A stretch of 52,609 nt of DNA, taken from positions 1-52,609 of the forward strand of contig JABHOV010000052.1 in NCBI GenBank assembly GCA_018695135.1, given 5' to 3'. Positions 1,328 through 48,731 of the stretch are shown here, piece after piece. This stretch comes from Candidatus Melainabacteria bacterium (GTDB lineage Bacteria; Cyanobacteriota; Vampirovibrionia; LMEP-6097). The first letter of the stretch is position 1. Each line of letters starts with the position of its first letter. Position numbers and translations under genes: made by a program. The notes under the pieces were generated by a model. It was not told the DNA's origin, made no database searches, and saw only the letters and a list, made by a program, of their open reading frames with translations.

Positions 1328-2164
1328 CTAGTCTTCTAGCAAGCTAGTAACAAATTCAAGGTATCTTGCATCAGCTTTACTAAAGTGCACATCAATATCC
1401 AAGTCTTTGTCTTTTGTTTGGTAATTCAATAAACCATCGTCAAAAATAGAACTTGCAAATTGTTCAAGCACCAGTTTAGCTGGATCAATAAAATTGTAAT
1501 CATTAGTAGACTTAACGCGCAAGTCCCCTTGCTCTTTACTAACGGAACTAGTGCTTAGCACCGTTCCGACCTTTTTTGTGTCGACATCACTAGCAAAACT
1601 TTGTTTTGCAGGATGTCTAGCCTCAACTAAAAAAGAATAATGAGTACAACCGATTATCACATCAGTAATCGCCTCAGGCAAATTCTTTAAATGTGTTTGC
1701 CAATTTGCTTTTGCTTCTTCAAGCTTGCCAGCTTCAATCAATGGCACCAGATCAGTACAAGCAACTGGATGGATATCTACTGACCAGTTTTTATAACGCC
1801 CAGAATCAATAGTTGCTTGAGTTGCAATCAAGGCAACTGGTTTGTCAAATTGATTAGTGGCAAAATATTTAGTCAGCACATCATTCAAACTAATGACCTG
1901 AAAAAAATAATCCACAAAATCAATTTGATCAAGATACATCGAACTAGAATTGCAAGCAGAAACAAGAACATCAACTTGCTTCTCTTGCATAAAGTCCGCA
2001 ATCTCTAGAACATAGCTCTTAAGCTGTTCTGGGCTCTTAGTACCATAAGGAGCCCGTGCTGAATCACCAAAATACACATATGAATACTTTGACCCATACT
2101 TGGCTATGAACTCTTTTAGTACCGAGAGCCCACCTAAACCTGAATCATAAAAGCCAAGCTTCAT
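1328..2164 (-). CDS. murI: glutamate racemase with ~37 aa palindrome-derived insertion
   Basis: DSGLGGLSV, GDSARAPYGTKS, ACNSSS, IGCTHY motifs. Confidence 0.95.
   Translation of the reverse strand: MKLGFYDSGLGGLSVLKEFIAKYGSKYSYVYFGDSARAPYGTKSPEQLKSYVLEIADFMQEKQVDVLVSACNSSSMYLDQIDFVDYFFQVISLNDVLTKYFATNQFDKPVALIATQATIDSGRYKNWSVDIHPVACTDLVPLIEAGKLEEAKANWQTHLKNLPEAITDVIIGCTHYSFLVEARHPAKQSFASDVDTKKVGTVLSTSSVSKEQGDLRVKSTNDYNFIDPAKLVLEQFASSIFDDGLLNYQTKDKDLDIDVHFSKADARYLEFVTSLLED
1507..1619. repeat. RPE-like palindromic element inserted in frame in murI
   Basis: TAGAC...GTCTA ends, internal hairpin CGGAAC-TA-GTGC-TTA-GCAC-C-GTTCCG; encodes RHPAKQSFASDVDTKKVGTVLSTSSVSKEQGDLRVKS. Confidence 0.65.
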
Positions 2165-3789
2165 AAGCCTTCCAGGTATTTAATTATTCCTCGTGCTACT
2201 GATTTTGCTAAATCATTTTGATAGCTTTCTCTCACTAATTTCTTTCTCTCAGCAACATTGGTCATAAAACCAAGTTCTAATAAAACAGAAGGCGCTTTGG
2301 TATATTTTGTCACCCAAAAATTGGCATGTCTAATTCTTTGATCTGGCATTAGTACATCCGTTAAGAGTTGCTTGTGTATCACTGCACCCAACTGCTTTCC
2401 TGTTGAAGAGTAATAATAGGTTTGTAAGCCCTGCATCTCTGGATTAGTAATTAAAGCATTGACATGAATCGAAACAAAAATCTTAGGGTCTACAGCATTG
2501 GTTACTTCAACTCTTTCAGCTAGTGAAATGAATCTATCCTCGGATCTCACCATATAGACATTAATTCCAGCAGCAGCCAAGTATTCCTGAACCTTGCGGG
2601 TAATATCAAGGGTGATGTCCTTTTCGTTGTAACCACCATAAACAGCACCAGAATCATAACCACCATGCCCAGCGTCCAAGACCACTACCGTACCAGCACT
2701 TTTTTGGGCAGCTTCAATTTCAACACCACCCTTGACTTTATCAGGAGAAACTCCAATCATTCTAATCAAAAGAGTTTTAGAGCCATTCGATTCCTTGAAT
2801 TCCTCAATAACATTCTTGGTTTTCATATCAAAAACAATTCTTGTCACAGGCTTTCCTAGGGTAGCTAAACCAAAACGCAAGTCTTGAACAAATTCAGTCT
2901 CCGGTAGTTGTTCCGCACCAAGCGCATCGTCGTAATCTAAACCGATCAAATCTACTACTAAGCGTTCCGGATTATGCAATTTCAAGAATTTGTAATCAAG
3001 CTTCTTTGAAGACTCAACAGCATAAACTACTTCTTCTTTAGAGTTGCGGTGTAACTTAATTGACAAAACTTTGTTATCCGCTCTAAAACCTTCGCTGTTT
3101 TCTTTGCCTTCACCCAAAACCAAAACTTGTTTTTCATTATTGCTAATGCGAACTTCTCTATTATGAGTATCTCTACCAGTAAAAACAACTCTAACAATTG
3201 AAGAATCAAATTGTGTAACTCTCATTTCTTCAGTGCCATTTTGATATGTTTTTTCCTGACTTGTACTTTTCAGCCTCGCGCCAATCAGGTCTAGTACCAG
3301 CCTTTCAGGGTTGTCCAACATGATTGACCTTGGTACTAAGGAACCATCAGCGGTGATACGCATATTACCATCTTCAAAACCAAAATCTTGAATTACCACA
3401 TCTTTGATTGCATATCTGAAAAACAATGTCTTTCCAATGTTTTCAATATTTACTTTTTCAAGTGCCGTTAGTGTAGTTGCTTCTGTAACAACTCTCACGG
3501 TATCAGCATCAAACTGAGCAACCCTTGCCCTCGTAATATCCAAACCAGTTGGTAAGTTATAAACAAAGCTCTTATTACCTAAATGTGCATCAAGAATATC
3601 AAAAACCAATCTTGGTGGATTTTCATAAATTCTTTTTTTAAATTTTAAATCACTAGCAGAATCATGATTCACTTCAAGAACCGTATTTCTGAGTGTAATT
3701 TCTTTGATTTCAATTTGCTTAGCAGTTGCAGCTAAACTGGCAAAACAAAAAGCCAAACAGATAATCAGATATCTAAAAATACAAGACAT
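2161..3789 (-). CDS. N-acetylmuramoyl-L-alanine amidase (Amidase_3) with three AMIN domains
   Basis: Repeated NPPRLVFD/NPERLVLD/NPERLVVD AMIN motifs; LDAGHGG, FVSIHVNA, LLELGFMTN; signal peptide favours ATG at 3789 over 3852. Confidence 0.92.
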   Translation of the reverse strand: MSCIFRYLIICLAFCFASLAATAKQIEIKEITLRNTVLEVNHDSASDLKFKKRIYENPPRLVFDILDAHLGNKSFVYNLPTGLDITRARVAQFDADTVRVVTEATTLTALEKVNIENIGKTLFFRYAIKDVVIQDFGFEDGNMRITADGSLVPRSIMLDNPERLVLDLIGARLKSTSQEKTYQNGTEEMRVTQFDSSIVRVVFTGRDTHNREVRISNNEKQVLVLGEGKENSEGFRADNKVLSIKLHRNSKEEVVYAVESSKKLDYKFLKLHNPERLVVDLIGLDYDDALGAEQLPETEFVQDLRFGLATLGKPVTRIVFDMKTKNVIEEFKESNGSKTLLIRMIGVSPDKVKGGVEIEAAQKSAGTVVVLDAGHGGYDSGAVYGGYNEKDITLDITRKVQEYLAAAGINVYMVRSEDRFISLAERVEVTNAVDPKIFVSIHVNALITNPEMQGLQTYYYSSTGKQLGAVIHKQLLTDVLMPDQRIRHANFWVTKYTKAPSVLLELGFMTNVAERKKLVRESYQNDLAKSVARGIIKYLEGL

Positions 3790-3873
3790 TGCACTAATAT
3801 TAAAGCAAATACCCAGGCTTAGCAAATATGTATTTCGTGCTTCGGGCGTCATACATATGCTATAAAATTAGTA

Positions 3874-6884: not shown

Positions 6885-6901
6885 GTACTCGATAAAACAA
6901 A

Positions 6902-6987
6902 CGTCATTGCGAGGGAATGAAATGACCGAAGCAATCTAGTGGATAGTTTTTAGATTGCCGCGCTGCATTCTGCAGCTCGCAATGACG
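6902..6987. repeat. CGTC-type REP-like inverted dimer, intergenic
   Basis: CGTCATTGCGAG...GAAGCAATCTA / TAGATTGCCGCG...CTCGCAATGACG. Confidence 0.92.
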
Positions 6988-7031
6988 ATTTTGTAAGGCT
7001 TCACCATACTTCAAAAAACTTATCTGCTTTA

Positions 7032-8350: not shown

Positions 8351-8574
8351 GTAGAAAAGCAGCAAGCTGCTGTTCTACGGTGGCGCTCACTTTGTTCGCT
8401 GGTTGCGCTTGCCTTTCAGGCTCGCTGGTTGCGGCACTTCGTGCCTGCCTCTTGTGTCAAAAGTCTTAGATTGTTCTCTTTTATGTTAGAAGCAGGACGT
8501 GAAACGTCCGCAACCAGGGAGCAAAGCGACCACAGCCAGCGAACAAAGTGAGCGCAACCGTCCTCGAAGAGGAC
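8351..8574. repeat. nested modular palindromic element between divergent genes
   Basis: Long imperfect inverted repeat 8377-8561 built from CAACCAG-NGA-hairpin modules; flanking hairpins 8351-8378 and GTCCTC-GAA-GAGGAC. Confidence 0.85.
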
Positions 8575-8595
8575 ACTAGCTATATAATAAAACTA

Positions 8596-12348: not shown

Positions 12349-12357
12349 TGCACCAAA

Positions 12358-13102: not shown

Positions 13103-13227
13103 AAAAGCTATCTCGAAAGTTCGAGAACGAGGCTTTTTTCGAGTAGCGGAACGGAGTTGGCTGAGCCGCCAATGTAGTGAGCAACACAGGAAAGTAACGA
13201 AGTTATCGGGCTTTCCAGGTAGCTTTT
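13103..13227. mobile_element. MITE/RPE-like palindromic element abutting clpC stop
   Basis: TIR AAAAGCTATCTCGAAAGTTCGAGAAC vs GTTATCGGGCTTTCCAGGTAGCTTTT; 21-bp core GAGTTGGCTGAGCCGCCAATG also present in acs. Confidence 0.8.
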
Positions 13228-17119: not shown

Positions 17120-17215
17120 ATTAAAATTTGTTAATATTTCATTTTTTCAAAGAAAATTGGAACAATTTAACTATGGCATAACAAACTTGTAATTTCCACG
17201 ATGAAAATAAAATAT

Positions 17216-17370
17216 AAAGTTTTGCTATGAATTTAACTTACTCGGCTGCAAGCAACCGAGTTTTTCAAGTTAAATTCATCATTTTCTTCGAAAATGACCG
17301 GCAAAACTTTGATCGTCATTCCGTTCAATCCTTCGTGAGCAAGCTCTCAAGTTTTCACTCCATTCGGAAT
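17216..17370. repeat. branched palindrome plus degenerate CGTC element
   Basis: AAAGTTTTGC/GCAAAACTTT, ATGAATTTAACTT/AAGTTAAATTCAT, ACTCGG/CCGAGT, TCATTTTC-TTC-GAAAATGA; then CGTCATTCCG...CGGAAT. Confidence 0.7.
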
Positions 17371-17524
17371 AAATTAAAGCCATAGAGCAGGACTAAAGAT
17401 ATATCCGAGCCAAACGATGTAGTATCGACGATCTGCATTAAGCAGGGGAGCTTTTTTGTATTACGGATAGAGGATTCAGTACTGAAAATCTCATTGAAGC
17501 ATATAAGTGATAGAATCACATAAA

Positions 17525-19540: not shown

Positions 19541-22225
19541 GTGAAGAATCTCAGTTGCCAAGAAATAAGAGAAACATGGATTAATTTCTTTACTAAGAAA
19601 TGTGACCGTATACATCAGCATATCGCTTCAGGATCTTTAGTACCGGATAATCCAACCCTACTACTTAACGCTGCTGGCATGGTTCAGTTTGTACCGATCT
19701 TCGTGGGTACCAAACCTGCCCCCGAGCCGCCAAGAGCTGTCACAGTACAGAAATGTGCGCGTGTCGGCGGCAAAGACAGTGACCTAGAAAATATCGGGCG
19801 CACAACTAGACATCATAGTTTTTTTGAGATGCTTGGTAATTTCTCATTTGGGGATTATTTCAAAAACGAAGCAATCAAATGGGCTTGGCAATTCGTCAGA
19901 GAAGAACTTGAACTAGACGCTGATAAATTATATGTTTCTATCTTTGAAGGCGACGAGCAAAACCCAATGGACACTGAAGCCCAAGCAATTTGGCTAGAGA
20001 TACTTGCACGAGACTTCCCTGATTTAGAGCAGCGTCAAAAACGTATTTGGAAGATGGGTCGCAAAGACAACTTTTGGGGGCCTCCAGGTACTACCGGTCC
20101 TTGCGGACCTTGTAGCGAAATATACTATGATCTTGGTGATCACATCAGTGACCCAGAAGACAGGTATCTTGAGATCTGGAACTTGGTTTTCATGGAATTT
20201 CTTAAAGACGAAGAAGGCAAATTCACTCCACTTGAAAATAAAAATATAGATACTGGCGCAGGACTAGAAAGAATCGCAACGATATTACAAGGAGTTAACA
20301 ACTCTTTTGAAACCAATGAACTATTCAATGTAATGCAAAGCCTTGCCAAAGACCTTGGTCTAGAATATGGCAAAAATCCAGATCATGATCTTTATCTCAA
20401 GATCATCACTGATCACTTACGTTGTCTTTGTTTCTTGATAGCTGATGGTGTTAGACCAAGTAATATGGGACGCGGTTATGTCCTTAGAATGATCACAAGA
20501 CGCGCTGCTAGGTTTGTTTATTTAATCCGTAACCAAACAGATGCTTTTCTTTATAAGCATTGTACTAGCGTAATTCAAAACTACTCACTAGCCTACCCTG
20601 AGCTGCAAGCAAACTCAGAAGCGATTGTTTCAGTTTGCCGCAAAGAAGAGGAGGCTTTTGCCAAGACTATTGTCAATGGACTTGCTTTGCTTGAGGAGAA
20701 ACTCAAAGCGAGTGGCAAAATGGTAGACGGAGAATTTATTTTTGATCTTTATTCAACTTATGGCTTACCACTTGAATTAAGCAAAGACATTGTTGAAGAA
20801 CAGGGACTCACTATTGACCTAGAAGCATACCAAAAATCCAAAGACGCTCACTCCAAAGCCTCTGGCACAGGCAATTTCAAGACATCCGTTGAATCGAATT
20901 CTTATGTCGCTGACTTAATCAAAAAACATGGTCCAACTAAATTCCTTGGTTACGACCAGCTTGAAGCCAAAGCCAAAGTGCTTGCAATCCATGGCAATGA
21001 CATCGTGCTTGATCAAACTCCATTTTATGCTGAGTCTGGCGGGCAGGTGGCAGACTCTGGCACCATCCGTCATTGCGAGGCGAAGCCGAAGCAATCCAAT
21101 GGACAAGTTAAAGCCACAGACGTCATTGCGAGCGTAGCGAAGCAATCCAGAGTAACCAAAGTAAAAAAAATCGAGGGCATATTCATTCATACTCTTGAAA
21201 GCACTGAAGACTTTAATATCGGCGATGAAGTCACAGCTCAAGTCAACAGTAAAAGCAGAAACCTTACTGGCTATCACCACACAACTTGTCATCTCTTGCA
21301 AGCCGCCCTGCGCCAAGTACTAGGAAACGACATTCAACAAATGGGCTCGCAAGTCGGACCAGAATATACTCGCTTTGACTTTAACCTTGATAGAGCCATG
21401 ACTAAAGAAGAAATATTCAAGACAGAAAAGATAGTCAATGACTGGATTCAAGCCAAGCTACCAGTAGAAACTAAGGTCATGGATTTTGATGATGCAATTG
21501 CAGCAGGCGCCCTTAGTTTCTTTGAAGAGAAGTATGACGACCAGGTTAGGGTTTTGTTTATCAGAGACGATCAACAAACAGCATCTATTGAGTTATGCGG
21601 TGGCACTCACGTCTCTAACATCGGCGATATTAGAGAAGTAGTACTGGCTCAAGAGGGTTCAGTGGCTGCAGGCATTCGCCGTATTCGCATGCTCGCTCAT
21701 GACTTAGCTGCCAAGCACCGAGAAGAAGAAAAACTCAAAGAAGCTGCGTTAGCCCAAGAGCAAGCTGCTCAAGAAAAAGCAAAAGCAGAGGCTAAGGCGC
21801 AGAAACTAGAACAAAACAACTTAGTACTTACAAAAACTGATGAGATTCTCAGCAAATCAAACAAAACGACAGAAGCTCAAATCATCATTGCCAATCTTGC
21901 AGATTATTTTCCTGGCGAAGAACTTGAAACCGATGCTGTCAAAACTCTAATAGAAGCCTTGCTCAGCAAGATAGAATCATCTGGTTCTCAAGCCTTTATT
22001 TTAGTAGCTGCAGCAAGCACTAGCAAAGTCACTTTTATGGCAGCAGCCTCTCAAGAACTAGTTAAAGACAAAAACTCTAGATATAATGCCTCTAATGCAG
22101 TCAAAACGGCAGCCCAAATCTGCGGTGGTGGTGGCGGTGGTAGACCCAATTTTGCCCAAGCAGGGGGGAAAGACCCTAGCAAAGTCCCTGAAGCCCTACA
22201 ACTAATTCAAGAAGATACAAAATAA
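19541..22225 (+). CDS. alaS: alanine--tRNA ligase with repeat-derived insertion
   Basis: NAAGMVQF, RHHSFFEMLGNFSFGDYFK, EIWNLVF, DTGAGLER, HHTTCHLL, ELCGGTH, GGGGGRPNFAQAG. Confidence 0.98.
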   Translation: MKNLSCQEIRETWINFFTKKCDRIHQHIASGSLVPDNPTLLLNAAGMVQFVPIFVGTKPAPEPPRAVTVQKCARVGGKDSDLENIGRTTRHHSFFEMLGNFSFGDYFKNEAIKWAWQFVREELELDADKLYVSIFEGDEQNPMDTEAQAIWLEILARDFPDLEQRQKRIWKMGRKDNFWGPPGTTGPCGPCSEIYYDLGDHISDPEDRYLEIWNLVFMEFLKDEEGKFTPLENKNIDTGAGLERIATILQGVNNSFETNELFNVMQSLAKDLGLEYGKNPDHDLYLKIITDHLRCLCFLIADGVRPSNMGRGYVLRMITRRAARFVYLIRNQTDAFLYKHCTSVIQNYSLAYPELQANSEAIVSVCRKEEEAFAKTIVNGLALLEEKLKASGKMVDGEFIFDLYSTYGLPLELSKDIVEEQGLTIDLEAYQKSKDAHSKASGTGNFKTSVESNSYVADLIKKHGPTKFLGYDQLEAKAKVLAIHGNDIVLDQTPFYAESGGQVADSGTIRHCEAKPKQSNGQVKATDVIASVAKQSRVTKVKKIEGIFIHTLESTEDFNIGDEVTAQVNSKSRNLTGYHHTTCHLLQAALRQVLGNDIQQMGSQVGPEYTRFDFNLDRAMTKEEIFKTEKIVNDWIQAKLPVETKVMDFDDAIAAGALSFFEEKYDDQVRVLFIRDDQQTASIELCGGTHVSNIGDIREVVLAQEGSVAAGIRRIRMLAHDLAAKHREEEKLKEAALAQEQAAQEKAKAEAKAQKLEQNNLVLTKTDEILSKSNKTTEAQIIIANLADYFPGEELETDAVKTLIEALLSKIESSGSQAFILVAAASTSKVTFMAAASQELVKDKNSRYNASNAVKTAAQICGGGGGGRPNFAQAGGKDPSKVPEALQLIQEDTK
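21068..21148 (+). repeat. two direct CGTC-type units in frame in alaS
   Basis: CGTCATTGCGAGGCGAAGCCGAAGCAATCC (21068-21097) and CGTCATTGCGAGCGTAGCGAAGCAATCC (21121-21148). Confidence 0.92.
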
Positions 22226-22753: not shown

Positions 22754-24904
22754 ACCTTCCAATACCTGCATATTCTCAAGCGTACTAATATCACCAGTAA
22801 CTTCTTTACCTTGAGCAATCTCTTTAAGTAATCTACGCATGATTTTACCTGAACGAGTTTTAGGAAGTGCTGAACAAATAACTATTCGTTCTGGTCTTGC
22901 TATTGCACCGATCTCTTTGACGACTTGATTTTTAAGTTCTTCTTCCAGATCGTCATTGCGAGTCGCCGAAGGCGGCGTGGCAATCTTGACATTAGAAGCT
23001 CTGGATTGCTTCGTTTCACTCGCAATGACGACAAAAGCAACAATAGCTTCACCCTTAATCTCATGAGGTATCGAAACTACAGCAGCTTCACTTACTAGCT
23101 CATGAGCAACAAGTGCTGACTCAATTTCGGCAGTTCCAAGACGATGACCAGATACATTGATCACATCATCTACTCTACCGCCAATTTTGATATAACCGTC
23201 CGCGTCTTTAGTTGCAGCATCACCAGCGAGATAAACGTCATTGCGAGGAGCGTCAGCGACGTGGCAATCCAGGCTAGATTGCTTTGCTTCGCTCGCAATG
23301 ACGTGACTCCAGTAAGTATCTATATACCTTTGATCATCACCCCAAATAGTCCTTGCCATAGAAGGAATAGGACTTTTCAAATATAGAAGTCCTTCATTGC
23401 TGACATCAGCATCCACACCAGGCAAAGGCAAGCCTGCCACACCTGGTTTCATCTCATGAACTCCAGGTAGAGTTGTAATTGCAATGCCACCAGTCTCTGT
23501 CTGCCACCAAGTATCCACTATAGGGGAATATTGTTCGACGACTCGCCCTGGACAACGCGAGCCACCTATATTCTTATAAAACCACTCCCAAGCAGCAGGG
23601 TTAATTGGTTCTCCGACAGAGCCAAGTAAACGAAGTGAACTTAGGTCGTGCTTCTCGACATGCTCCAAACCCCATTGCATAAACGCCCTCACCGCAGTCG
23701 GTGCCGTATAAAAAATACTAATCTTGTATTTCTCTATCATTGACCAAAAACGAGATTTATCTGGGTAGTCTGGAGCGCCTTCGTAGATGAAGACGGAGGC
23801 GCCGTTAGAAAGCGGCCCATATGCTACATAGCTATGTCCCGTCACCCACCCCACGTCCGCTGTGCACCAGTATAAATCCCCAACTGCTGCGTTACGCTCA
23901 TGATTTACAGTCATCATTGGCGGCTCAGCCAACTCAGCCTGTAAATCATTCGCAAGCCTTGCATTTGGAGAATTTCTACTGGCGCACAGAGTATCCACAG
24001 TTGAATCACAGTCTTGAGTTTTCAAATCGAATACCCAGTTACTGGTTAAATGCGTCCAAAGAATATATCCCGCCGTCGTATGCACTATCCCCTTAGGCTT
24101 GCCTGTAGAGCCGCTTGTATACAAAACAAAGCTCATGTCTTCAGCCTCCAATTGTTCTGGCTCACAATTCGCTTCAAAACTACTTAGATCCCAAGTAACC
24201 AAATTCGCAATTGATTTCTGCAATTCCAAATCGTCATAGCTAGAATCAACTTGTTTAATCCGATCAAAACAAACTACTCTTGAAACAAAACTCAAGCCAT
24301 CGACAGCTTCTTTAACTGTCTCTAACAGCGGCACCACTTTGCCTCGACGAAACGATCCATCCGCAGTGATCACATACTTAGATTTAAGATCCTCAATTCT
24401 ATCGCGCAATGCTTGTGCAGAGAAACCTCCAAACACTACACTATGAACAGCACCAATTCTCAAACAAGCATGCATCGCAATTATTGCTTCTGGGCACATT
24501 GGCATATAGAGAGTGACTGTATCGCCCTTCTTAACACCAATACTCTTAAGCAAATTAGCTGCCTTGCAAACTTGATCATGCAGCTCTTGATAAGTCAGGG
24601 TCTTAGTATCACCAGGCTCACCTTCAAAAACAATTGCAGCTTTGTTGGCTTGAGTTTTTAGATGCCTGTCGATACAGTTGTATGAGATATTGATCTTGCC
24701 ATCTTCAAACCAAGTAAAGAAGGGCTCTTCTTTCTTCAACATTGCCACCGTCGGTTCTTTAAACCAATCCAAATTCTCTTTAGCTAAATCCAACCAAAAA
24801 GCATCAGGATCAGTTTTGAATTTAGACATCAAAGCCTGATAATCAGCATCCTTGATATTAGCTTGTGCTTTAAATTCTTCACTGGGGCTGTAGGATTGCT
24901 GCAT
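22733..24904 (-). CDS. acs: acetate--CoA ligase with four in-frame insertions
   Basis: [73 protein letters not shown]; ATG 24904 preferred. Confidence 0.97.
22951..23030. repeat. CGTC-type inverted dimer in frame in acs
   Basis: CGTCATTGCGAG...CTCGCAATGACG; encodes [26 protein letters not shown]. Confidence 0.93.
23236..23303. repeat. CGTC-type inverted dimer in frame in acs
   Basis: CGTCATTGCGAG...CTCGCAATGACG; encodes [22 protein letters not shown]. Confidence 0.93.
23522..23549. repeat. short imperfect hairpin giving a 9 aa insertion in acs
   Basis: RCP[GRVVEQYSP]IVDTWW versus usual RCPIVDTWW; AGGG...CCCT stem. Confidence 0.55.
23860..23989. mobile_element. MITE/RPE-like palindrome in frame in acs
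   Basis: CTGTGCACCAGTATAAATCCCCAACTGC vs GCATTTGGAGAATTTCTACTGGCGCACAG; inner ATGATTTACAG/CTGTAAATCAT; 21-bp core shared with 13154-13174. Confidence 0.85.
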
Positions 24905-24969
24905 GCAACAATGATAGCATCGCTTCAAATAATTCATAGATATCTTGAGTCGCCAACACTAGATTTTCG

Positions 24970-25169
24970 TAAAAGCTCAATAATTTAAGGACAAGGTACT
25001 TCTCTGTGAATGAACATAGACGGAGCATGAACAAAACGAATTTTCCAAAAAGCAGCCTCGCAAAGTCAGCAGCTTCTTCGAAGCTGAACTGTACTCACTT
25101 TGCTACAGAACCTTTTTGGAGAAATTGTTTTGTCCACGTTCCTTAATTCATCTAGTAATGGAGCTTTTA
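24970..25169. mobile_element. MITE-like nested palindrome, intergenic
   Basis: TAAAAGCTC/GAGCTTTTA ends; ACAAAAC..AATTTTCCAAAAAG / CTTTTTGGAGAAATTGTTTTGT; CAGCTTC-TTC-GAAGCTG. Confidence 0.7.
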
Positions 25170-25191
25170 GAGATTTACTTAGTAATATCAA

Positions 25192-25335
25192 AAGCAAAAA
25201 GTCTAAAAGGATTTTGAGCTAAGATTTGCGAAAGAGGTTTGAGTTCAAGTAATGAGCAGCGATAGTCTGCGAAGAACTTGACACGTGATAGCGAGCTGAG
25301 CAAATTCTTAGTCAAAATTCGTAGACTTTTTGCTT
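25192..25335. mobile_element. MITE-like palindrome, intergenic
   Basis: Perfect 14-bp AAGCAAAAAGTCTA/TAGACTTTTTGCTT ends plus ~25 bp more imperfect pairing. Confidence 0.75.
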
Positions 25336-25407
25336 GGAGCTAAATACGCATAATTCGCTTACAAATCAAAGGATTCAAAATATCTATGAATTATATAGAG
25401 TCAATGA

Positions 25408-37105: not shown

Positions 37106-38090
37106 CTCTATACAAAAATTCTTGCATCAAATAGTCTTAGGCAATTCTTTCTTGGCTAGATCTTTATTTGAGATGGAGAAATCTTTATTTCATAAAAAAG
37201 ATGAGATCATAAGCAATGCTGAACATGTTTTCATCACAGGTTTACCAAGATCAGGAACTACTATACTGCTCAAAGCTCTTTATGAGACAGGAGATTTTGC
37301 TTCATCAACTTATGCAGATATGCCATTTGTCTTAGCGCCAAATTTATTCAAGCAATTTTCAAGCAAATCAAACTTACAAACTAAAGAGAGAGCTCAACAA
37401 GATGGCATAGAGCTTGATTTAACTTCCCCAGAAGCTTTTGATGAGGTTTTCTTCAAGGCTTTCACACAAGATGAGTCTCACGAGGAGCTACAAGCTTTTG
37501 TCTCACTCATCTTGAAGAAATATCAAAAAAAAAGATATTTAAGCAAAAACAATCTAAATTATCAACGTATTGAATTAATCAGCTCAGTTTTCCCTAATGC
37601 AAGATTCTTAATTCCATTTAGAGAGCCATTGCAACATGCTTATTCATTACTAAAGCAACATCAGCATTTTTACAAATTACAAAAGCAAGATAGTTTTGTT
37701 TTGGAATATATGAATTTACTCGGACATCATGAGTTTGGATTAAACCATATAGCTTGGAACCCAGCCCAGCAATACACAGATCCTTTTAGTCTTAGTTACT
37801 GGCTAGAACAATGGTGTATGTTCTATCAAAACATTCTCAAAGACAAGTCAAAACAATCAAGCCTCGTTTCTTATTCAAGGCTATGTGAAAGCCAAGAATA
37901 TAGACAAGCCTTGGTCACAGAACTAAAACTAACAGAGTTGACAACCGTCTTCAAGCTTGCACAAGCAGATATTCAAGAAGACTATGACAGAGATCTGTAT
38001 GATAAGTCTAACGAGATTTATCAAATCCTCAATTTGAGTAGTACGTGTAAAAGTTTAGGTGACCTAAGTCCCTACAAAGTACAATCATGA
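37092..38090 (+). CDS. PAPS-dependent sulfotransferase family protein
   Basis: FITGLPRSGTT 5'-PSB loop, FREPLQHAYS 3'-PB motif; likely start MQNYS. Confidence 0.85.
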   Translation: MQNYSSIQKFLHQIVLGNSFLARSLFEMEKSLFHKKDEIISNAEHVFITGLPRSGTTILLKALYETGDFASSTYADMPFVLAPNLFKQFSSKSNLQTKERAQQDGIELDLTSPEAFDEVFFKAFTQDESHEELQAFVSLILKKYQKKRYLSKNNLNYQRIELISSVFPNARFLIPFREPLQHAYSLLKQHQHFYKLQKQDSFVLEYMNLLGHHEFGLNHIAWNPAQQYTDPFSLSYWLEQWCMFYQNILKDKSKQSSLVSYSRLCESQEYRQALVTELKLTELTTVFKLAQADIQEDYDRDLYDKSNEIYQILNLSSTCKSLGDLSPYKVQS

Positions 38091-38241
38091 AAATATCGCT
38101 CACCCACTCTCTGTTACTGCATCAGTTTTTTCGAGTAATCACAGTCTGAAGCGCTATGTGAGGATCGATGACTGTAAACAGTCCTCACAAATATTTTCAG
38201 ATTGCACTTTGTAGGGACTTAGGTCACCTAAACTTTTACAC
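38045..38241. mobile_element. 197-bp MITE-like element with ~50-bp terminal inverted repeats
   Basis: 36-bp perfect IR GTGTAAAAGTTTAGGTGACCTAAGTCCCTACAAAGT extended by ~15 imperfect bp; inner TGTGAGGA/TCCTCACA. Confidence 0.88.
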
Positions 38242-38277: not shown

Positions 38278-40116
38278 ATGTCCCAATGGTCAATCCATTC
38301 CAAAAACAAAATCGGTCCAGAGCTACTAGAATTAGCGAAGGGAGATAGTTTAATTGCACGTATTTTACTCAATCGTGGAGTCAATACTATTGAAGCTGCT
38401 CGTTACTACCTTGACACCAAAAACATCCAAGCTTCTAGCCCACTTGAAATACCAGAAATGGATGTCGCTTATACCAGAATCAACAAAGCAATAGAACAGA
38501 AAGAAAGAATCTTGATCTACGGAGACTATGATGTTGATGGCACCAGCTCAGTGGCGCTACTTTATAGAGCATTTGCAATGATTGGAGTTCATGTCGATTA
38601 CTATATTCCTGACCGTCACTCCGAGGGTTACGGCATCAACAAAGAAGCTATCAAAAAAATCAAAGAAGAACATCAAGCGGCGCTAATGATCTCCTGTGAT
38701 TGTGGCATTAGTAATTATGATGAAGTAGAATATGGACAAAGTATTGGTTTGGATATTATAGTCACTGACCATCATTCAATACCAGACAACCCACCTCCAG
38801 GGATTGCCAACTGCAACCCAAAGACCTTGCCTGAAGAGCATCCCTTGCATTTTTTGCCAGGAGTAGGAGTTGCCTACAAACTAGCCGAACTCATCTTAAG
38901 TCATCATTTAAATAAAGAGATGGCAGTAACTTACACCCAATCACTTCTTGACCTTGTAGCACTCGGCATGATTGCTGATCTGGCACCATTACGCGCAGAA
39001 AATAGATACCTGACAGTGCTTGGCTTAGAGGTATTAGCCAAAACCAAAAAACCAGGTTTGCAAGAGCTACTCAAAATCAGTAGCAGAGGAGCTGACACAG
39101 AATCAATTGGTTTTGGGCTGGCACCAAGAATTAATGCAGCAGGTAGATTAGCTGACGCCACTAGAGCGGTCAGACTCATGATTACAGAAGACAGAGATGA
39201 AGCGATTGAGCTTTGCCGTGACCTTGATGATGAAAATAAAAACAGACAAGAACTTTGTAATGAGATTCAAGAAGATGCCCTCAGTATCATTGATCAAGAT
39301 AGAGCGATGCTTGAGGATAATGTAATCGTACTAGCCAAAGAGGGTTGGCATCACGGAGTAATTGGCATTGTAGCTAGTCGCATGCTCGACAAGTTCCACT
39401 TGCCAGTTTTTATTATGGCGCTTGATGGTGACAAAGCCAGAGGTTCAGTACGTTGCATAGCTATTGATGATTTAGATATTTATCAAGAGATGAAAGCTAT
39501 TCAAAAAAAGCATAATTTATTCCTTGGCTATGGCGGGCACAAAATGGCAGCTGGATTTAGTGTCAAAGCTCAAGACACTAATGAACTTTGCCTTGCCATT
39601 AGAGATCACTTCAGACTCAAGCTCGATGGACGCAACCTTGAAAAACAAATCAAGATTGATACAGCCCTCAGGCTCAAAGAACTCAGCAGCTCACTAATCA
39701 CTCGCCTTGAGAAGCTAGCACCTTATGGTATGGAGCATAGGCAGGCATTGTTTATCTCTGGTCCACTCAAAATTGAAGCGACAAGAATGCTCGGCAAAGA
39801 TGGCAAGCATATCAAGTTGTTTTTGTCTGAAGGAGATAGTCGCAAAAAATATGAAGCAGTACTCTGGAATAGAGCAGAAGAACTAAGCCAAGAATTTCAA
39901 GCTGGCTCAGCGATCACCATTGCATATACACCGCGCATAAATGAATTCATGGGCGACAAAATAATGCAACTAGATATCAAAGACTGGAAACATCCAAGTG
40001 ATGTTGCTGATGAATTTTTTGAGAGATTTAAGGACACGCTGAAAAACGAAGTTTTTCTAGTCGGGTCCATGAAAAAAGGTTCTAACATGGCGGAGCATGG
40101 CCCAGATAAGGGTTGA
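38278..40116 (+). CDS. recJ: single-stranded-DNA exonuclease RecJ
   Basis: GDYDVDG, DCG, TDHH, LAPRINAAGR, HGVIGIVASR, GGHKMAAG. Confidence 0.97.
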   Translation: MSQWSIHSKNKIGPELLELAKGDSLIARILLNRGVNTIEAARYYLDTKNIQASSPLEIPEMDVAYTRINKAIEQKERILIYGDYDVDGTSSVALLYRAFAMIGVHVDYYIPDRHSEGYGINKEAIKKIKEEHQAALMISCDCGISNYDEVEYGQSIGLDIIVTDHHSIPDNPPPGIANCNPKTLPEEHPLHFLPGVGVAYKLAELILSHHLNKEMAVTYTQSLLDLVALGMIADLAPLRAENRYLTVLGLEVLAKTKKPGLQELLKISSRGADTESIGFGLAPRINAAGRLADATRAVRLMITEDRDEAIELCRDLDDENKNRQELCNEIQEDALSIIDQDRAMLEDNVIVLAKEGWHHGVIGIVASRMLDKFHLPVFIMALDGDKARGSVRCIAIDDLDIYQEMKAIQKKHNLFLGYGGHKMAAGFSVKAQDTNELCLAIRDHFRLKLDGRNLEKQIKIDTALRLKELSSSLITRLEKLAPYGMEHRQALFISGPLKIEATRMLGKDGKHIKLFLSEGDSRKKYEAVLWNRAEELSQEFQAGSAITIAYTPRINEFMGDKIMQLDIKDWKHPSDVADEFFERFKDTLKNEVFLVGSMKKGSNMAEHGPDKG

Positions 40117-40143
40117 GACTTTGCATTTTCCAGTGCATCCTTA
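40029..40143. mobile_element. MITE/RPE-like palindrome supplying recJ C-terminus
   Basis: TAAGGACACGCTGAAAAACG vs CATTTTCCAGTGCATCCTTA (differences are transitions); recJ stop lies inside. Confidence 0.7.
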
Positions 40144-41116: not shown

Positions 41117-41192
41117 ATTTAATCATGGCAAGACATAGTGGATGCACTGTATAGAGCAATTCTGCGAACAAAGATTTGTCATAATTGCACTA

Positions 41193-41444
41193 ATGACTCC
41201 AAAGTGGCACAACTTTGATAAACATAGAGCCGAAGTTTGTAAACAAACAGGCTATATCTTATGCACACCCTTTTGTATTATGTCATTGCAGTTGATCCTA
41301 AACAATTTTCTAATCGACAAAGATCTAAGATTTGGTTTCACTATTGCTTCAATACTTGGGCTCTTGGGATTTTTGCTAGTTGTGAAATCGATAAAAATAA
41401 TGTACTATCTAGACAGGAGTATTGCTTATGACACTATTAACTGA
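41193..41444 (+). CDS. small hypothetical two-TM protein
   Basis: Two hydrophobic segments; TGTCATAAT 7 nt before ATG 41193. Confidence 0.55.
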   Translation: MTPKWHNFDKHRAEVCKQTGYILCTPFCIMSLQLILNNFLIDKDLRFGFTIASILGLLGFLLVVKSIKIMYYLDRSIAYDTIN

Positions 41445-41592
41445 CGGTCAATGGCTTGGCTTATTGATTCTTGCAATTTTCACAGCAGTGGCTTTCTATT
41501 TATCTTATTATATCGGAGCAGAGCTTGATCCTGATTGTGAGATAATGAGAAAAAGATTTGGAAGAAGAAGAACCACAAAAGAAACTCAATAA
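41428..41592 (+). CDS. 54 aa single-TM protein missing from the ORF track
   Basis: AGGAG SD; MTLLTDGQWLGLLILAIFTAVAFYLSYYIGAELDPDCEIMRKRFGRRRTTKETQ. Confidence 0.55.
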   Translation: MTLLTDGQWLGLLILAIFTAVAFYLSYYIGAELDPDCEIMRKRFGRRRTTKETQ

Positions 41593-42404: not shown

Positions 42405-42629
42405 ATGTCAACAATCATTTTTGCAATACAAATTCTTTCAGGTCTATTTACAGTATTTTTTGTACTCATCAAGGACCCTAAATCTGAAGGTCTTGGAGCA
42501 ATTGGATCATCAGCTAGTAGCTTCAAAGGAGTTAAAACTAGTGCTGATGAGCAGCTTGACAATATGACTTGGATATTTGTTGCAGTATTTTTATTTAGTT
42601 CAGCTCTATTAGGTTTTAAGCTAGTATAA
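42405..42629 (+). CDS. secG: preprotein translocase subunit SecG
   Basis: Two TMs flanking PKSEGLGAIG...KTSADEQLDNMTW. Confidence 0.85.
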   Translation: MSTIIFAIQILSGLFTVFFVLIKDPKSEGLGAIGSSASSFKGVKTSADEQLDNMTWIFVAVFLFSSALLGFKLV

Positions 42630-43772
42630 ATAGTCCAGATCCTCAGCAAAGCCGAGATCTGGACGGATGCGTTCGCTATGCTCACTGGTTGTGCCTGCTT
42701 TGCAGGCTTCCACTAAACGTATAGATCCTGTGATGATGACAAGATCATTAGAAGTTTTTAAACCTTTTGCAGTAGCAATAGCTTCTTGAGGATTTAGAAT
42801 CATCATCTTATTAGCATCAATAATTTCATCAAGTACAAAAGCAGGAGTAGCTCTTGAAGAATCAATCTCTGTAAGTATTACAAGATCTCTATCAGCATCA
42901 AAAATTTCTTGTGTTAACAACTCATCAAGGCAGGCTTGATAGTCCTTATCTAAAAAAGCCAAAACGAAAATCTTGCGCTCAAAGCTTGGCAAATCCTTTT
43001 GAATAAAGTGGTTAAGCTTTTTCATTGCAGCAGGATTATGAGCGACGTCAATTAAAACTCCGTCATTATATTCAAAACGAGCTCTATGACGCTGAGGGAA
43101 TTGTTTTAAGACTTCTTGTTTTGTTTCATCACTAACTATAAGCTTATTTATTGATTCAAAGATTTCTAGAGCAAGAAGAAAATTGCTTCCCCTTACATCA
43201 TTGGGATTAGCCCCTGAGCCATGAGCCCCCAGCCCTGAGCCTTCGAAGTGGCAAATGCCGCTTCGACAGATCCCTTCTTTCTCACGACGAATTTCTTCAA
43301 TACTGTTGCCCAAATAATCCATATGGTCCATTGCCACATTAGTAATAGCTGAAGCAATTCGATTCTCTACTGGAATGACATTAGTAGCATCAAAGCGTCC
43401 ACCCAGACCAGTTTCCAAAATAACTATATCAACTTGCTCTTGTTTAAAATATTCAAATCCAATCAAAGTGAGTTTTTCAAATTCAGTTAGCCCTGAGCCC
43501 TCAAGCTCCAACCCTGAACCAAATTTTTCAAACTCCTCTTGAGAAATATCTTTGCCATTAACACTAAATCTCTCCGTTACCGACCAAATATGTGGGCTGG
43601 TATATTTACCGACTTTAAGATCAGGCACAACATTCAAATACAAAAGCTCTAAGAACGTGCAAACTGATCCCTTGCCATTGGTTCCAGCAATATGAATAGT
43701 TCTAAAATCATAAGGACCAAGCTTGCTATAAGCTGTTTGCACATTGTTCAAAGAATAGTTAATCACTGACAC
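42621..43772 (-). CDS. folC: folylpolyglutamate/dihydrofolate synthase, compact, with repeat-derived segments
   Basis: IHIAGTNGKGS, YTSPH, ETGLGGRFDATN, DVAHNP, TGS. Confidence 0.93.
   Translation of the reverse strand: MSVINYSLNNVQTAYSKLGPYDFRTIHIAGTNGKGSVCTFLELLYLNVVPDLKVGKYTSPHIWSVTERFSVNGKDISQEEFEKFGSGLELEGSGLTEFEKLTLIGFEYFKQEQVDIVILETGLGGRFDATNVIPVENRIASAITNVAMDHMDYLGNSIEEIRREKEGICRSGICHFEGSGLGAHGSGANPNDVRGSNFLLALEIFESINKLIVSDETKQEVLKQFPQRHRARFEYNDGVLIDVAHNPAAMKKLNHFIQKDLPSFERKIFVLAFLDKDYQACLDELLTQEIFDADRDLVILTEIDSSRATPAFVLDEIIDANKMMILNPQEAIATAKGLKTSNDLVIITGSIRLVEACKAGTTSEHSERIRPDLGFAEDLDYLY
42633..42707. repeat. modular hairpin element forming folC 3' extension
   Basis: GTCCAGATC...GATCTGGAC, GCCTGC-TTT-GCAGGC; minus-strand CAACCAGTGAGCATAGCGAACGCATCC resembles the 8351 element modules. 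Confidence 0.7.
43209..43520. repeat. two degenerate AGCCCTG heptamer arrays in folC (43209-43244, 43489-43520)
   Basis: AGCCCCTG AGCCATG AGCCCCC AGCCCTG AGCCTTC; encode EGSGLGAHGSG and GSGLELEGSGL. Confidence 0.7.
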
Positions 43773-43813: not shown

Positions 43814-43911
43814 AGATTGCGAAGCAATCTCATATGCACTAGCCGCAGGCTAGCTAAGCAGGTCGTGAAACGACCATATGCAGCTTAGTTCCTATGCTTA
43901 GGAACTAAGCT
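43814..43911. repeat. array of four perfect hairpins between rne and folC
   Basis: AGATTGC-GAA-GCAATCT, CTAGCC-GCA-GGCTAG, GGTCGT-GAA-ACGACC, AGCTTAGTTCCTA-TGCT-TAGGAACTAAGCT. Confidence 0.85.
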
Positions 43912-48614: not shown

Positions 48615-48626
48615 TTTTATTAAATC

Positions 48627-48731
48627 CGTCATTGCGAGGAACGAAGTGACGTGGCAATCCAGTGGATTAATTTCAAAAGTTTATTCAATAGTCAATGCAT
48701 TAGGTTGCTTCGCCTACGGCTCGCAATGACG
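48627..48731. repeat. CGTC-type inverted dimer filling the rpsJ-radical SAM spacer
   Basis: CGTCATTGCGAGGAACGAAGTGACGTGGCAATCC ... GGTTGCTTCGCCTACGGCTCGCAATGACG. Confidence 0.92.

What the first reader, a model, noticed from the sequence alone, without database searches (positions are those of the whole stretch)
1507..48731. Multi-family palindromic element system that writes new peptide segments into core genes
Seen: about 18 palindromic or hairpin elements in 52 kb. They include CGTC units (6902, 21068, 21121, 22951, 23236, 48627), 110-200 bp MITE-like palindromes (1507, 13103, 23860, 24970, 25192, 38045, 40029) and CAACCAG modules (8351, 42633). At least nine alter proteins without breaking the frame: acs x4, alaS, murI, and the C-termini of recJ, folC and the sulfotransferase. 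Known: in-frame Rickettsia palindromic elements (RPEs) and CGTC-tagged REPs exist in other phyla. Inference: this apparent Melainabacteria lineage carries an independent, multi-family version, mobilised in trans because no transposase or nuclease is in the window.
Basis: partly seen in the sequence, partly recalled or inferred. Interest (0 to 1): 0.88.

Follow-up and report, generated by a model that had tools for sequence, protein, structure and literature searches.

The report
In-frame mobile palindromes in core genes
This small marine bacterial genome is peppered with several families of tiny hairpin-forming mobile DNA repeats, and three of those families sit inside intact essential genes where they add short extra peptide loops, much as was first described in Rickettsia.

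Summary
The core observation holds. The window (contig C111 of a 2.05 Mb, 124-contig draft) holds about 15 dispersed palindromic elements from at least seven repeat families.

- **In-frame inserts:** five are internal, in murI, alaS and acs (three in acs).
- **C-terminal tails:** three others supply the tails of recJ, a sulfotransferase and a FolC-like ligase.
- **Empty sites:** 8 of 9 genic insertions checked are absent from the same site in a same-genus genome (G001). More distant orthologues also lack them.
- **Genome-wide:** 60 ORFs carry an internal element. Of 20 sampled, 15 have a Pfam family, among them glyS, purL, mutS, aroA and dapA.
- **CGTC units:** they fit the published CGTC-tagged REP superfamily, to which Rickettsia RPE-4 and RPE-6 belong. 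They occur in 63 of 201 genomes sampled from the phylum, so they are not an independent invention.
- **F1 and F4:** F1 is a MITE with terminal inverted repeats (TIRs) and a target-site duplication (TSD), and adds exactly 114 nt at 4 of 4 empty sites. F4 is a long imperfect palindrome. In-ORF copies of both are read almost always in one hydrophilic frame.
- **F8:** it adds 113 nt and is never internal (0 of 68 loci).
- **Details not upheld:** the fourth acs insert is an ordinary 9-aa indel, 25192 is single-copy, and one family at 17214 was missed.
- **Mobiliser:** six Y1 transposase genes lie elsewhere in the genome, but none is flanked by these repeats.

Verdict: real, a new member of a known kind.

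The parts
1507..1619 (+). F1 MITE inside murI (gene on the - strand, 1328-2164). Adds 38 codons just after the GCTHY motif. Read as RHPAKQSFASDVDTKKVGTVLSTSSVSKEQGDLRVKS.
   Evidence: 74 loci genome-wide. TIR TAGACWTCCTGC. Absent from the G001 orthologue, net +114 nt. PDB alignment of MurI stops at the insert.
6902..6987 (.). CGTC-tagged REP inverted doublet (REPIN-like), intergenic, downstream of purD.
   Evidence: fold z -4.8
8377..8561 (.). F2 'CAACCAG' 185-nt palindrome, intergenic between purD and the 8548-12348 ORF.
   Evidence: 35 loci, 1 internal; z -11.2
13103..13225 (.). Low-copy palindrome downstream of the Clp ATPase gene. Shares a 21-nt core with the F4 family.
   Evidence: (I2); z -4.3
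17214..17373 (.). F11 repeat, intergenic.
   Evidence: 9 loci in G000; several copies in G001 and G002; z -6.2
21064..21154 (+). Two CGTC REP units in head-to-tail order inside alaS. They add 24 codons (RHCEAKPKQSNGQVKATDVIASVAKQSR region).
   Evidence: G001 has 15 nt where the window has 87, net +72. None of the other 9 rows aligned carries this insert; 8 have no comparable insert, and L019 has a different CGTC-type peptide in the same loop.
22951..23030 (.). CGTC REP inverted doublet inside acs (site D, C-terminal domain loop). Read as [26 protein letters not shown].
   Evidence: Net +63 nt against G001. Protein alignment. Independent metagenome contig with 0 differences spans it (X2 record 10).
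23236..23303 (.). CGTC REP inverted doublet inside acs (site C). Read as [22 protein letters not shown].
   Evidence: Net +57 nt against G001; spanned by independent contigs.
23860..24000 (+). F4 palindromic MITE-like element inside acs (site A). About 45 extra residues, including [33 protein letters not shown].
   Evidence: 50 loci. Present in G000 and G001, absent from 9 of 11 other orthologues. G012 has the same family in the opposite orientation at the same site. z -6.5.
24969..25169 (.). F5 palindromic repeat, intergenic upstream of acs.
   Evidence: 14 loci, 0 internal; z -6.1; not at this site in G001
25185..25345 (.). Long palindrome, single copy in this genome.
   Evidence: Only the self hit in G000; z -6.2; part matches G001:C73.
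38045..38241 (.). F7 197-nt near-perfect palindrome. Its left arm supplies the last codons and the stop of the sulfotransferase gene (37053-38090).
   Evidence: 42-nt arms 98% complementary (I1); 6 loci; G001 has a different 111 nt here; z -14.2
40028..40143 (+). F8 MITE (TIR TTAAGGAYRCRCTGAAAAA, TTAA at both ends) replacing the recJ C-terminal tail.
   Evidence: 68 loci, 0 internal, 8 tails. Empty TTAA site in G001, net +113. Contigs of two runs join 40031 to 40147.
42664..42708 (.). 45-nt fragment of the F2 family inside the 3' tail of the FolC-like Mur-ligase gene (42621-43772, - strand).
   Evidence: G001 has 216 nt where the window has 54
48627..48731 (.). CGTC REP inverted doublet, intergenic, next to the start of the radical-SAM gene.
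   Evidence: G001 carries an F4 element in this same slot
23527..23557 (-). 9-aa extra segment PGRVVEQYS in acs. Not part of the repeat system.
   Evidence: Single copy, no hairpin (z -0.2), absent from all 11 other orthologues aligned.

Best explanation
The genome carries several unrelated families of small non-autonomous mobile palindromes. They insert anywhere, and purifying selection then removes almost every genic copy. Genic copies survive only if they keep the reading frame, carry no stop codon, encode a hydrophilic peptide and land in a tolerant loop.

Three families can survive inside genes:
- **CGTC-tagged REP units.** They occur as inverted doublets or singlets of varied length and are read in several frames.
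- **F1.** A 110-nt MITE with 11-12-nt terminal inverted repeats and a 4-nt target duplication, so each insertion adds exactly 114 nt (38 codons).
- **F4.** A long palindrome of about 135-145 nt.

Families whose net length is not a multiple of three, or whose frames hold stops, stay intergenic or only replace C-terminal tails. F8 (+113 nt), F5, F2, F7 and F11 are of this kind.

**Shown:** repeat families, hairpins, TIRs, empty sites, intact single-copy host genes, frame bias.

**Inferred:** mobilisation in trans by transposases not linked to the elements (a DDE enzyme for F1 and F8; a Y1/HUH enzyme or none for CGTC units), translation of the inserts, and their neutrality.
For: **Repeat families and counts.**

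**In-ORF share**:

| Family | Internal in-frame copies |
|---|---|
| F1 | 21 of 74 |
| F4 | 11 of 50 |
| CGTC doublets | 11 of 39 |
| CGTC singlets | 20 of 55 |
| F8 | 0 of 68 |
| F5 | 0 of 14 |
| F2 | 1 of 35 |
| Random 100-nt segments (control) | 552 of 1000 |

So the elements are depleted in genes, as expected under selection.

**Hosts.** 60 distinct ORFs carry an internal element. Of 20 sampled, 15 have a Pfam family at E <= 1e-5, including GDE, GlyS, MsrAB, PurL, NadC, PGI, AroA, MutS, DapA and GH31.

**Empty sites in same-genus G001.**
- murI, GDE, glyS and purL: +114 nt each.
- alaS +72, acs C +57, acs D +63, recJ +113.
-.

**TSD.** ATTA or ATCA is seen on both sides in purL and GDE against a single copy in G001.

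**Frame bias.** 17 of 21 in-ORF F1 copies share one orientation and frame, although four frames are open in most copies. The binomial against 1/4 gives 1e-7. That frame is the most hydrophilic (GRAVY -1.22 against 0.19 to 1.09). For F4, 9 of 11 copies share a frame with GRAVY -0.82.

**Hosts are single-copy and intact.** alaS, murI and acs have no second copy in the assembly.

**Not an assembly artefact.** A contig from a different study spans both acs CGTC inserts with 0 differences.
Against: - No autonomous partner was found. DDE_3 and the TnpB family PF07282 gave 0 hits. The two DDE_Tnp_1 genes have unrelated ends. The six Y1 genes are flanked by other repeats. The genome is 93.9% complete in 124 contigs, so a partner may simply be unassembled.
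- The TSD is unclear at 2 of 4 F1 empty sites, glyS and murI.
- There is no evidence that the inserts are transcribed or translated.
- The ORF census rests on stop-free spans, not on curated genes. 5 of 20 sampled hosts have no Pfam family.
- Repeated hits in the same protein loops could reflect target preference rather than selection alone.
Confidence: 0.85

Rival explanations
1. The CGTC units are no longer mobile in this lineage. They are old relics kept and shuffled by recombination, and the differences from G001 are deletions or gene conversions rather than new insertions.
For: Di Nocera et al. 2013 found no dedicated transposase for CGTC REPs and raised possible extinction (PMC3733652, section 16 and discussion passages read). 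None of the six Y1 genes is flanked by CGTC units. The apical parts are very diverse, with 102 distinct sequences among 118 units, which speaks for age. A 205-nt identical tract around the acs F4 element shows that recombination between the two species does move insertion alleles.
Against: All three genic CGTC insertion sites checked (alaS, acs C, acs D) are absent in G001 and in most other orthologues, which is more simply explained by gain in G000. Base and tag are nearly invariant in 133 copies. Copy numbers differ widely between genomes of one genus.
Confidence: 0.25
2. The inserted peptides or hairpins are functional and kept by positive selection, for example as new surface loops, regulatory mRNA hairpins or protein-level modules, rather than being tolerated passengers.
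For: There is a strong bias to one hydrophilic frame. Independent hits fall in the same loops of Acs and AlaS in several genera. The acs F4 region is 100% conserved between two species.
Against: The same peptide appears in unrelated enzymes. 8 of 9 genic inserts are not shared with the closest relative. Hydrophilic bias and loop recurrence are what a purely negative filter predicts. No functional test was possible.
Confidence: 0.1
3. The apparent inserts are artefacts of metagenome assembly or binning, with repeats wrongly joined into genes.
For: The genome is a 124-contig draft. Contigs in public runs often break at these repeats (loose ends and joints).
Against: Contigs from other studies span the acs inserts with 0 and 6 differences (X2 record 10 and X1 record 3). 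Reading frames stay open through every insert. Relatives from other assemblies carry analogous inserts.
Confidence: 0.03
4. The extra segments are ancestral parts of the proteins that were lost in relatives, not insertions.
For: The acs site A segment is shared by G000 and G001.
Against: The segments are copies of dispersed repeats that also lie in intergenic DNA. They are absent from 9 of 11 (site A) or all 11 other Acs orthologues aligned, and from solved Acs structures.
Confidence: 0.02

Closest known systems
CGTC-tagged REPs (Di Nocera, De Gregorio, Rocco 2013, BMC Genomics 14:522; PMC3733652), which include Rickettsia conorii RPE-4 and RPE-6
   Same: An unpaired CGTC or TGTC tag at one end, a stem whose first two pairs are A-T, and a short tail. 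Units stand mostly as inverted dimers or singlets. Some lie inside genes and encode 20-30 residues, tRNA synthetase genes included. No transposase gene is flanked by them.
   Different: The paper reports them in five phyla and does not list Cyanobacteria among the phyla with CGTC repeats (results text read). Here the conserved base is only 5 bp (ATTGC/GCAAT). The apical stem-loop is hypervariable, whereas the four published families have 8-9 bp stems with 4-5 nt loops. The tail is CTA in 61 of 118 units and CCA in 48 of 118. The published consensus sequences are in figures and supplements that I could not see.
Rickettsia palindromic elements, RPE-1 type (Ogata et al. 2000, Science; cited from the review PMC10969869, passages read)
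   Same: Palindromic repeats of 100-150 bp inserted in frame into unrelated housekeeping genes. Each family is read in one conserved frame that gives a hydrophilic peptide. Many genes are hit in a small genome.
   Different: A different phylum and, judging by related runs, a different habitat (estuary and sea water). F1 has clear TIRs and a 4-nt TSD, so it is a classical MITE. Sequence likeness to RPE-1 was not tested because no RPE sequence was at hand.
REPINs with RAYTs, and TIRYT/TIRtron elements (Bertels and Rainey 2011, PMC3116915; Di Nocera 2013)
   Same: REP doublets that form hairpins. The genome has six Y1/HUH genes of 301-318 aa, whose best NCBIfam match is REP_Tyr_transpos. Four of the six genes are flanked by repeats of four families that are also scattered as inverted pairs: GGGTCGTATCC x40, GGTCGTAACG x18, CCGGGTATCGTC x13 and CCCGCTGCGTGACAT x39.
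   Different: The scores (54.6-61 bits) are under the curated cut-off of 80. None of these genes is flanked by CGTC units or by F1, F4 or F8 ends. None of their repeats lies in the window.
Intragenic bacterial MITEs (ERIC in enterobacteria, QMITE1 of Coxiella, MITEs of Anabaena PCC 7120; listed in review PMC10969869)
   Same: Small TIR-bearing elements that create in-frame fusions with host ORFs.
   Different: Here the share of in-ORF copies (about 28% for F1) and the number of host genes (60) are at the high, Rickettsia-like end.

Membership tests
CGTC-tagged REP superfamily | Unpaired CGTC (or TGTC/CCTC) tetranucleotide at one end | tested here: met
   Of 118 units with a closing stem, 84 have CG and 25 have TG before TCATTGCGAG.
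CGTC-tagged REP superfamily | Short stem-loop whose first and second stem pairs are A-T | tested here: met
   The stem ATTGC...GCAAT forms in the minimum-energy fold of 93 of 118 units.
CGTC-tagged REP superfamily | Short unpaired tail fitting CCA | tested here: inconclusive
   The tail after GCAAT is CCA in 48 of 118 units and CTA in 61 of 118.
CGTC-tagged REP superfamily | Units mostly in inverted dimers able to form a larger hairpin | tested here: met
   39 inverted doublets (78 units) and 55 singlets. Doublets fold with z -4.0 and -4.8.
CGTC-tagged REP families 1-4 | Stem of 8-9 bp with loop of 4-5 nt and the family consensus sequence | tested here: not met
   The conserved base is 5 bp. 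The inner part is 7-35 nt long with 102 distinct sequences. The published consensus sequences are in a figure I could not read, so this may be a fifth family.
MITE (F1 family) | Terminal inverted repeats | tested here: met
   TAGACWTCCTGC at both ends in an alignment of 30 copies.
MITE (F1 family) | Target-site duplication against an empty site | tested here: met
   ATTA or ATCA on both sides against one copy in G001 at purL and GDE; unclear at glyS and murI. Net +114 nt at 4 of 4 sites.
MITE (F1, F4, F8) | A full-length element with the same ends that encodes the transposase | tested here: not met
   DDE_3 0 hits. DDE_Tnp_1 2 hits with unrelated ends. TnpB family PF07282 0 hits. The genome is 93.9% complete, so this is not proof of absence.
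REPIN/RAYT system (for the CGTC units) | A RAYT gene flanked by the same REPs | tested here: not met
   Six Y1_Tnp genes. Four carry flanking inverted repeats of other families and none is flanked by CGTC cores.
Rickettsia palindromic elements | In-frame insertion into unrelated ORFs with one conserved, hydrophilic peptide per family | tested here: met
   F1: 17 of 21 in one frame, GRAVY -1.22. F4: 9 of 11, GRAVY -0.82.
Rickettsia palindromic elements | Sequence relatedness to RPE-1 to RPE-10 | not tested
The only link is the paper's statement that RPE-4 and RPE-6 are CGTC REPs.
Rickettsia palindromic elements | Inserts lie on the protein surface and are translated | not testable with these tools
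No RNA run was listed.

The most novel reading that the evidence does not exclude
F1 and F4 are not merely tolerated. They are MITE lineages shaped at the element level for life inside genes, through a net length of exactly 3n, frames kept open and one strongly hydrophilic reading. In a compact 2 Mb genome with little intergenic space, genes then serve as their main safe harbour. About 3% of genes carry such loops. The same loops are hit again and again in different genera. Insertion alleles also cross species borders by homologous recombination, as the 205-nt identical tract in acs suggests. The CGTC units, with an invariant base and a free apical stem, would be substrates of a Y1/HUH enzyme acting in trans. 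That would make this a tractable system outside the obligate intracellular Rickettsia for the old question of how CGTC REPs and RPEs move.
Probability: 0.25. Interest if true: 0.7.

Novelty: new member of a known kind. Interest (0 to 1): 0.5.

Why it matters
In-frame 'selfish' palindromes in housekeeping genes have been treated mainly as a Rickettsia curiosity. A 2024 review says it is conceivable that a similar mechanism has occurred in other prokaryotes (PMC10969869, passage read).

This genome shows the same phenomenon at similar or larger scale, with 60 host ORFs in 2 Mb, in a marine or estuarine lineage of apparently non-photosynthetic Cyanobacteriota.

It also offers a clean natural experiment. 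Families that add 3n bases and read as hydrophilic peptides persist in genes. A sister family that adds 113 bases never does.

Two practical points follow:
- These peptides will contaminate protein families and orthologue alignments built from such MAGs.
- CGTC-tagged REPs extend to a further phylum.

Tried and rejected
- **Structure prediction of Acs with its inserts.** Surface exposure of the inserts is therefore untested.
- **Expression.** No RNA holder was listed among 23 runs, so this says nothing either way.
- **Laid contigs.** They gave no within-population presence/absence signal. The join 40031 to 40147 in X1 and X6 carries the G001-type letters and probably comes from the sister species, because I laid at 90% likeness.
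- **Literature search for the motif itself.** The DNA 11- and 12-mers and three peptide readings found only unrelated primer hits (12 papers). 'Melainabacteria' + 'palindromic' + 'repeat' found nothing relevant (13 papers, 10 listed).
- **Test of apical hairpins against shuffles.** Not significant for the family as a whole (mean -1.21 against -1.03 kcal/mol; 5 of 118 in their best 5%). Only some subfamilies have an apical stem.
- **First G000/G001 acs alignment.** It used the wrong strand and was redone.
- **Ends of the two DDE_Tnp_1 elements.** They do not match any MITE family.
- **Inteins, introns or programmed bypass.** Considered and dropped. The frames are open through the inserts and the inserts are copies of intergenic repeats.
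- **Supplements and figures of Di Nocera 2013.** The consensus sequences and the list of intragenic REPs were not available. They may already list this unit.
Full report
**Setting**

The window is contig C111 of a 2,048,102-base draft in 124 contigs, with 39% G+C, 93.9% completeness and 2.6% contamination. The closest public records are MAGs titled 'uncultured Gammaproteobacteria bacterium' (59-68% AlaS identity) and one titled 'Cyanobacteriota bacterium' (58%). The genome has no match to the photosystem reaction-centre family PF00124. Near-identical sequence is held by runs labelled estuary, marine, aquatic or seawater metagenomes from 12 studies.

Yes, in the main.
- The 10-mer TCATTGCGAG occurs 133 times in the genome against 3.1 expected.
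- A BLAST of the window against the whole genome marks dispersed repeats at 1487-1636, 6901-6992, 8377-8574, 13124-13206, 17210-17376, 21062-21154, 22949-23030, 23230-23302, 23873-23977, 24969-25169, 38045-38243, 40013-40156, 42664-42708 and 48618-48734.
- The other repeated stretches in that map are paralogous genes, a tandem repeat and a tRNA-Met gene.
- All listed elements fold much better than shuffles, with z from -2.9 to -14.2.
- Pfam confirms the hosts: glutamate racemase, AlaS, Acs, a sulfotransferase, RecJ and a Mur-ligase/FolC-like protein.

Four details do not hold:
- The fourth 'acs insert' (PGRVVEQYS) is single-copy and unstructured.
- The palindrome at 25192 is real but single-copy here.
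- 42633 is only a 45-nt fragment of the CAACCAG family.
- A family at 17214-17373 was missed.

**Are they insertions?**

*Acs.* I aligned Acs with 11 orthologues from relatives.
- Site A (about 45 extra residues) is present only in G000 and same-genus G001.
- G012 has a 48-residue insert at the same place. It is the same repeat family in the opposite orientation.
- Sites C and D are unique to G000.
- Other genera carry their own CGTC-type peptides in the same two loops: G002, G008 and G017.
- The solved Salmonella Acs lacks all three inserts.

*DNA comparison with G001*:

| Site | Net gain in G000 |
|---|---|
| murI | +114 nt |
| alaS | +72 nt |
| acs C | +57 nt |
| acs D | +63 nt |
| recJ | +113 nt |

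*RecJ.* The tail changes from ERFNVLQSSAL* in G001 to a 28-residue element-encoded tail in G000.

*AlaS.* None of the other 9 rows aligned carries the 24-residue insert. Eight have no comparable insert, and L019 has a different CGTC-type peptide in the same loop while its sister L020 has none.

*More F1 hosts.* Three further F1 hosts taken from other contigs (GDE, glyS, purL) are also empty in G001, each by exactly 114 nt.

Altogether 8 of 9 genic insertions checked are absent from the congener.

*Hosts and assembly.* alaS, murI and acs are single-copy in the assembly. Contigs from other studies span the two acs CGTC inserts with 0 and 6 differences. So the inserts are not artefacts and the hosts are unlikely to be pseudogenes.

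**Genome-wide census**

Loci come from BLAST and ORF context from stop-free spans with at least 50 codons on each side.

| Family | Loci | Internal in frame | 3' tails |
|---|---|---|---|
| F1 | 74 | 21 | 1 |
| F4 | 50 | 11 | 2 |
| F8 | 68 | 0 | 8 |
| F5 | 14 | 0 | 0 |
| F2 | 35 | 1 | 0 |
| F7 | 6 | 0 | 2 |
| F11 | 9 | 0 | 2 |
| CGTC inverted doublets | 39 | 11 | 3 |
| CGTC singlets | 55 | 20 | 3 |
| Random 100-nt segments | 1000 | 552 | 72 |

- Sixty distinct ORFs carry at least one internal element.
- Of 20 sampled hosts, 15 have a Pfam family at E <= 1e-5. They are glycogen debranching enzyme, GlyS, MsrA/B, PurL, NadC, PGI, AroA, MutS, an aminotransferase, an IF-2B family protein, DapA, a phosphorylase, a helicase, GH31 and a decarboxylase.
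- The other 5 sampled hosts have none.

**Anatomy of the families**

*F1*
- It has ends TAGACWTCCTGC.
- At purL and GDE the filled sites show ATTA or ATCA on both sides against one copy in G001. The core is therefore 110 nt with a 4-nt duplication, giving 114 nt in all. glyS and murI are unclear.

*F8*
- It has 19-nt TIRs and TTAA at both ends. A single TTAA stands at the empty recJ site. The net gain of 113 nt is not a multiple of three.

*F4*
- It is a long imperfect palindrome with a conserved core.

*Reading frames*
- In-ORF copies are read almost always the same way. For F1, 17 of 21 share one orientation and frame (RHPAKQSFASDVDTKKVGTVQSTSSVS...). For F4 the figure is 9 of 11.
- For F1 this is not forced by stop codons. 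Four of six frames are open in 24-30 of 34 full-length copies. The binomial against 1/4 is 1e-7.
- The frame used is the most hydrophilic: GRAVY -1.22 for F1 against 0.19, 0.26 and 1.09, and -0.82 for F4.

*CGTC units*
- Each consists of a CGTC or TGTC tag, a conserved 5-bp base ATTGC/GCAAT, a variable apical part and a CCA or CTA tail.
- The apical part has 102 distinct sequences among 118 units, many with different complementary stems.
- In ORFs they are read in several frames, such as VIAS..., RHCE..., SLR... and ...ARND.

**Comparison with what is known**

*CGTC-tagged REPs.* The CGTC units match the description by Di Nocera et al. 2013 (PMC3733652; abstract, sections 6, 15 and 16 and passages read).
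- Shared features are a terminal CGTC or TGTC, stems that begin with two A-T pairs, short tails, inverted dimers and intragenic copies encoding 20-30 residues (tRNA synthetases included). No transposase gene is flanked by them.
- That paper equates R. conorii RPE-6 and RPE-4 with CGTC-1 and CGTC-4.
- It lists CGTC repeats in five phyla, without Cyanobacteria.
- The pattern GTCATTGCGAG-N6-30-GCAAYC is present in 63 of 201 sampled genomes of this phylum, with up to about 90 copies. It also occurs in 5-8 Mb genomes. The backwards control gives 0-1.
- So the CGTC family is neither new in kind nor private to this lineage. It may be a further family of the superfamily, because its stem and loop geometry differs from the four published families. 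I could not see their consensus sequences.

*F1 and F4.* These are confined to this family of genomes: 8 of 31 and 7 of 31 relatives including G000. They behave like RPE-1 (review PMC10969869, passages read).

*Y1 genes.* The six Y1 genes are 301-318 aa. Their best NCBIfam match is REP_Tyr_transpos at 54.6-61 bits, under the cut-off of 80, and they have a DnaA-C-like tail. Four of them are flanked by inverted repeats of four families that are themselves scattered as inverted pairs, 13 to 40 copies each. They resemble the paper's TIRYT/TIRtron class. None of those repeats is in the window.

**Mechanism**

*Shown*
- Several families of hairpin repeats.
- TIRs for F1 and F8, and a TSD for F1.
- Recent gains relative to a congener.
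- Depletion of elements in genes.
- Survival in genes only of families with 3n net length, open frames and a hydrophilic reading.

*Inferred*
- Mobilisation in trans by enzymes not linked to the elements. No DDE_3 or TnpB family PF07282 gene was found, and the two DDE_Tnp_1 genes have unrelated ends. A partner may also sit in unassembled sequence.
- The inserts are translated and sit in tolerant surface loops.
- They are passengers rather than adaptations.

**Open points**
- A 205-nt run of perfect identity between G000 and G001 (23859-24063) covers the acs F4 element and its flank, in a locus alignment that is 81.8% identical overall. It points to a recent exchange of the insertion allele between species, or to a chimeric contig.
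- Repeated hits in the same loops may reflect target choice as well as selection.

**Verdict**

This is a real and rather rich case of an already described phenomenon, in a lineage where I found no report of it. I rate it a new member of a known kind, with interest 0.5.

Noticed in passing
window 23859-24063 against G001:C66: A 205-nt run of 100% identity with the same-genus genome covers the F4 element in acs and its flank, while the aligned locus is 81.8% identical overall (73-96% in 100-nt windows nearby). This suggests recent exchange of the insertion allele between species, or a chimeric contig.
   Followed up: partly
window 48616-48733 against L049 (G001:C56:5350-5713): The same intergenic slot holds a CGTC REP doublet in G000 but an F4-family element in G001, so different mobile repeats occupy one site in sister species.
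   Followed up: partly
G000 contigs C69:6637-7563, C123:10163-11119, C57:9185-10132, C46:27980-28885, C124:34098-35054, C124:3450-4394 (L013-L018): Six Y1/HUH transposase-like genes of 301-318 aa with a DnaA-C-like tail. Four are flanked by inverted repeats of four families that are also scattered through the genome as inverted pairs (13-40 copies each). They are TIRYT/REPIN-like systems separate from the families in the window. The C57 copy looks truncated at its 5' end.
   Followed up: partly
L003 (G012 acs), L004, L006, L009 (acs of G002, G017, G008); L019 (alaS of a relative): Independent repeat-derived inserts lie in the same Acs and AlaS loops in other genera. One is an F4 element in the opposite orientation at acs site A in G012. 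Another is a CGTC-type peptide in the AlaS loop of L019 but not of its sister L020.
   Followed up: partly
genome-wide CGTC units (for example window 6902, 21068, 22951): The base of the hairpin and the tag are almost invariant, while the apical part differs in nearly every copy (102 distinct among 118), often with a different but complementary stem. This is unlike simple decay of copies from one master.
   Followed up: partly
window 44268-44486: Tandem array with a 9-nt period (at least 16 registers) inside the 601-aa ORF 43905-45710 on the - strand. It would encode a tripeptide repeat.
   Followed up: no
window 29244-30533 and 34130-35419: Two stretches 71-75% identical at a constant offset of 4886 nt. 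They are paralogous genes (ORFs 29086-30525 and 33957-35411, both on the - strand).
   Followed up: no
window 12342-13195 and 41116-41531: These stretches hold small ORFs (12414-12734 and 41142-41444) and correspond to only 142 nt and 64 nt in G001. They are lineage-specific DNA next to repeat elements.
   Followed up: no
window 12358-12418: Near-perfect 26-nt inverted repeat with a 9-nt spacer between the 8548-12348 ORF and the next ORF. It has one other match in the genome and may be a terminator or a further small repeat.
   Followed up: no
window 28158-28234: A tRNA-Met gene. It explains the very high depth and the apparent 'repeat' at 28162-28301.
   Followed up: yes
L043 (G001:C102:5400-6000) and L048 (G001:C101:14050-14500): G001 carries a further repeat (with a core like GGTAGCAACCGCGCG...GCGTGTTGCC), twice in tandem upstream of murI and once in the folC tail region. 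G000 does not have it at those sites.
   Followed up: no
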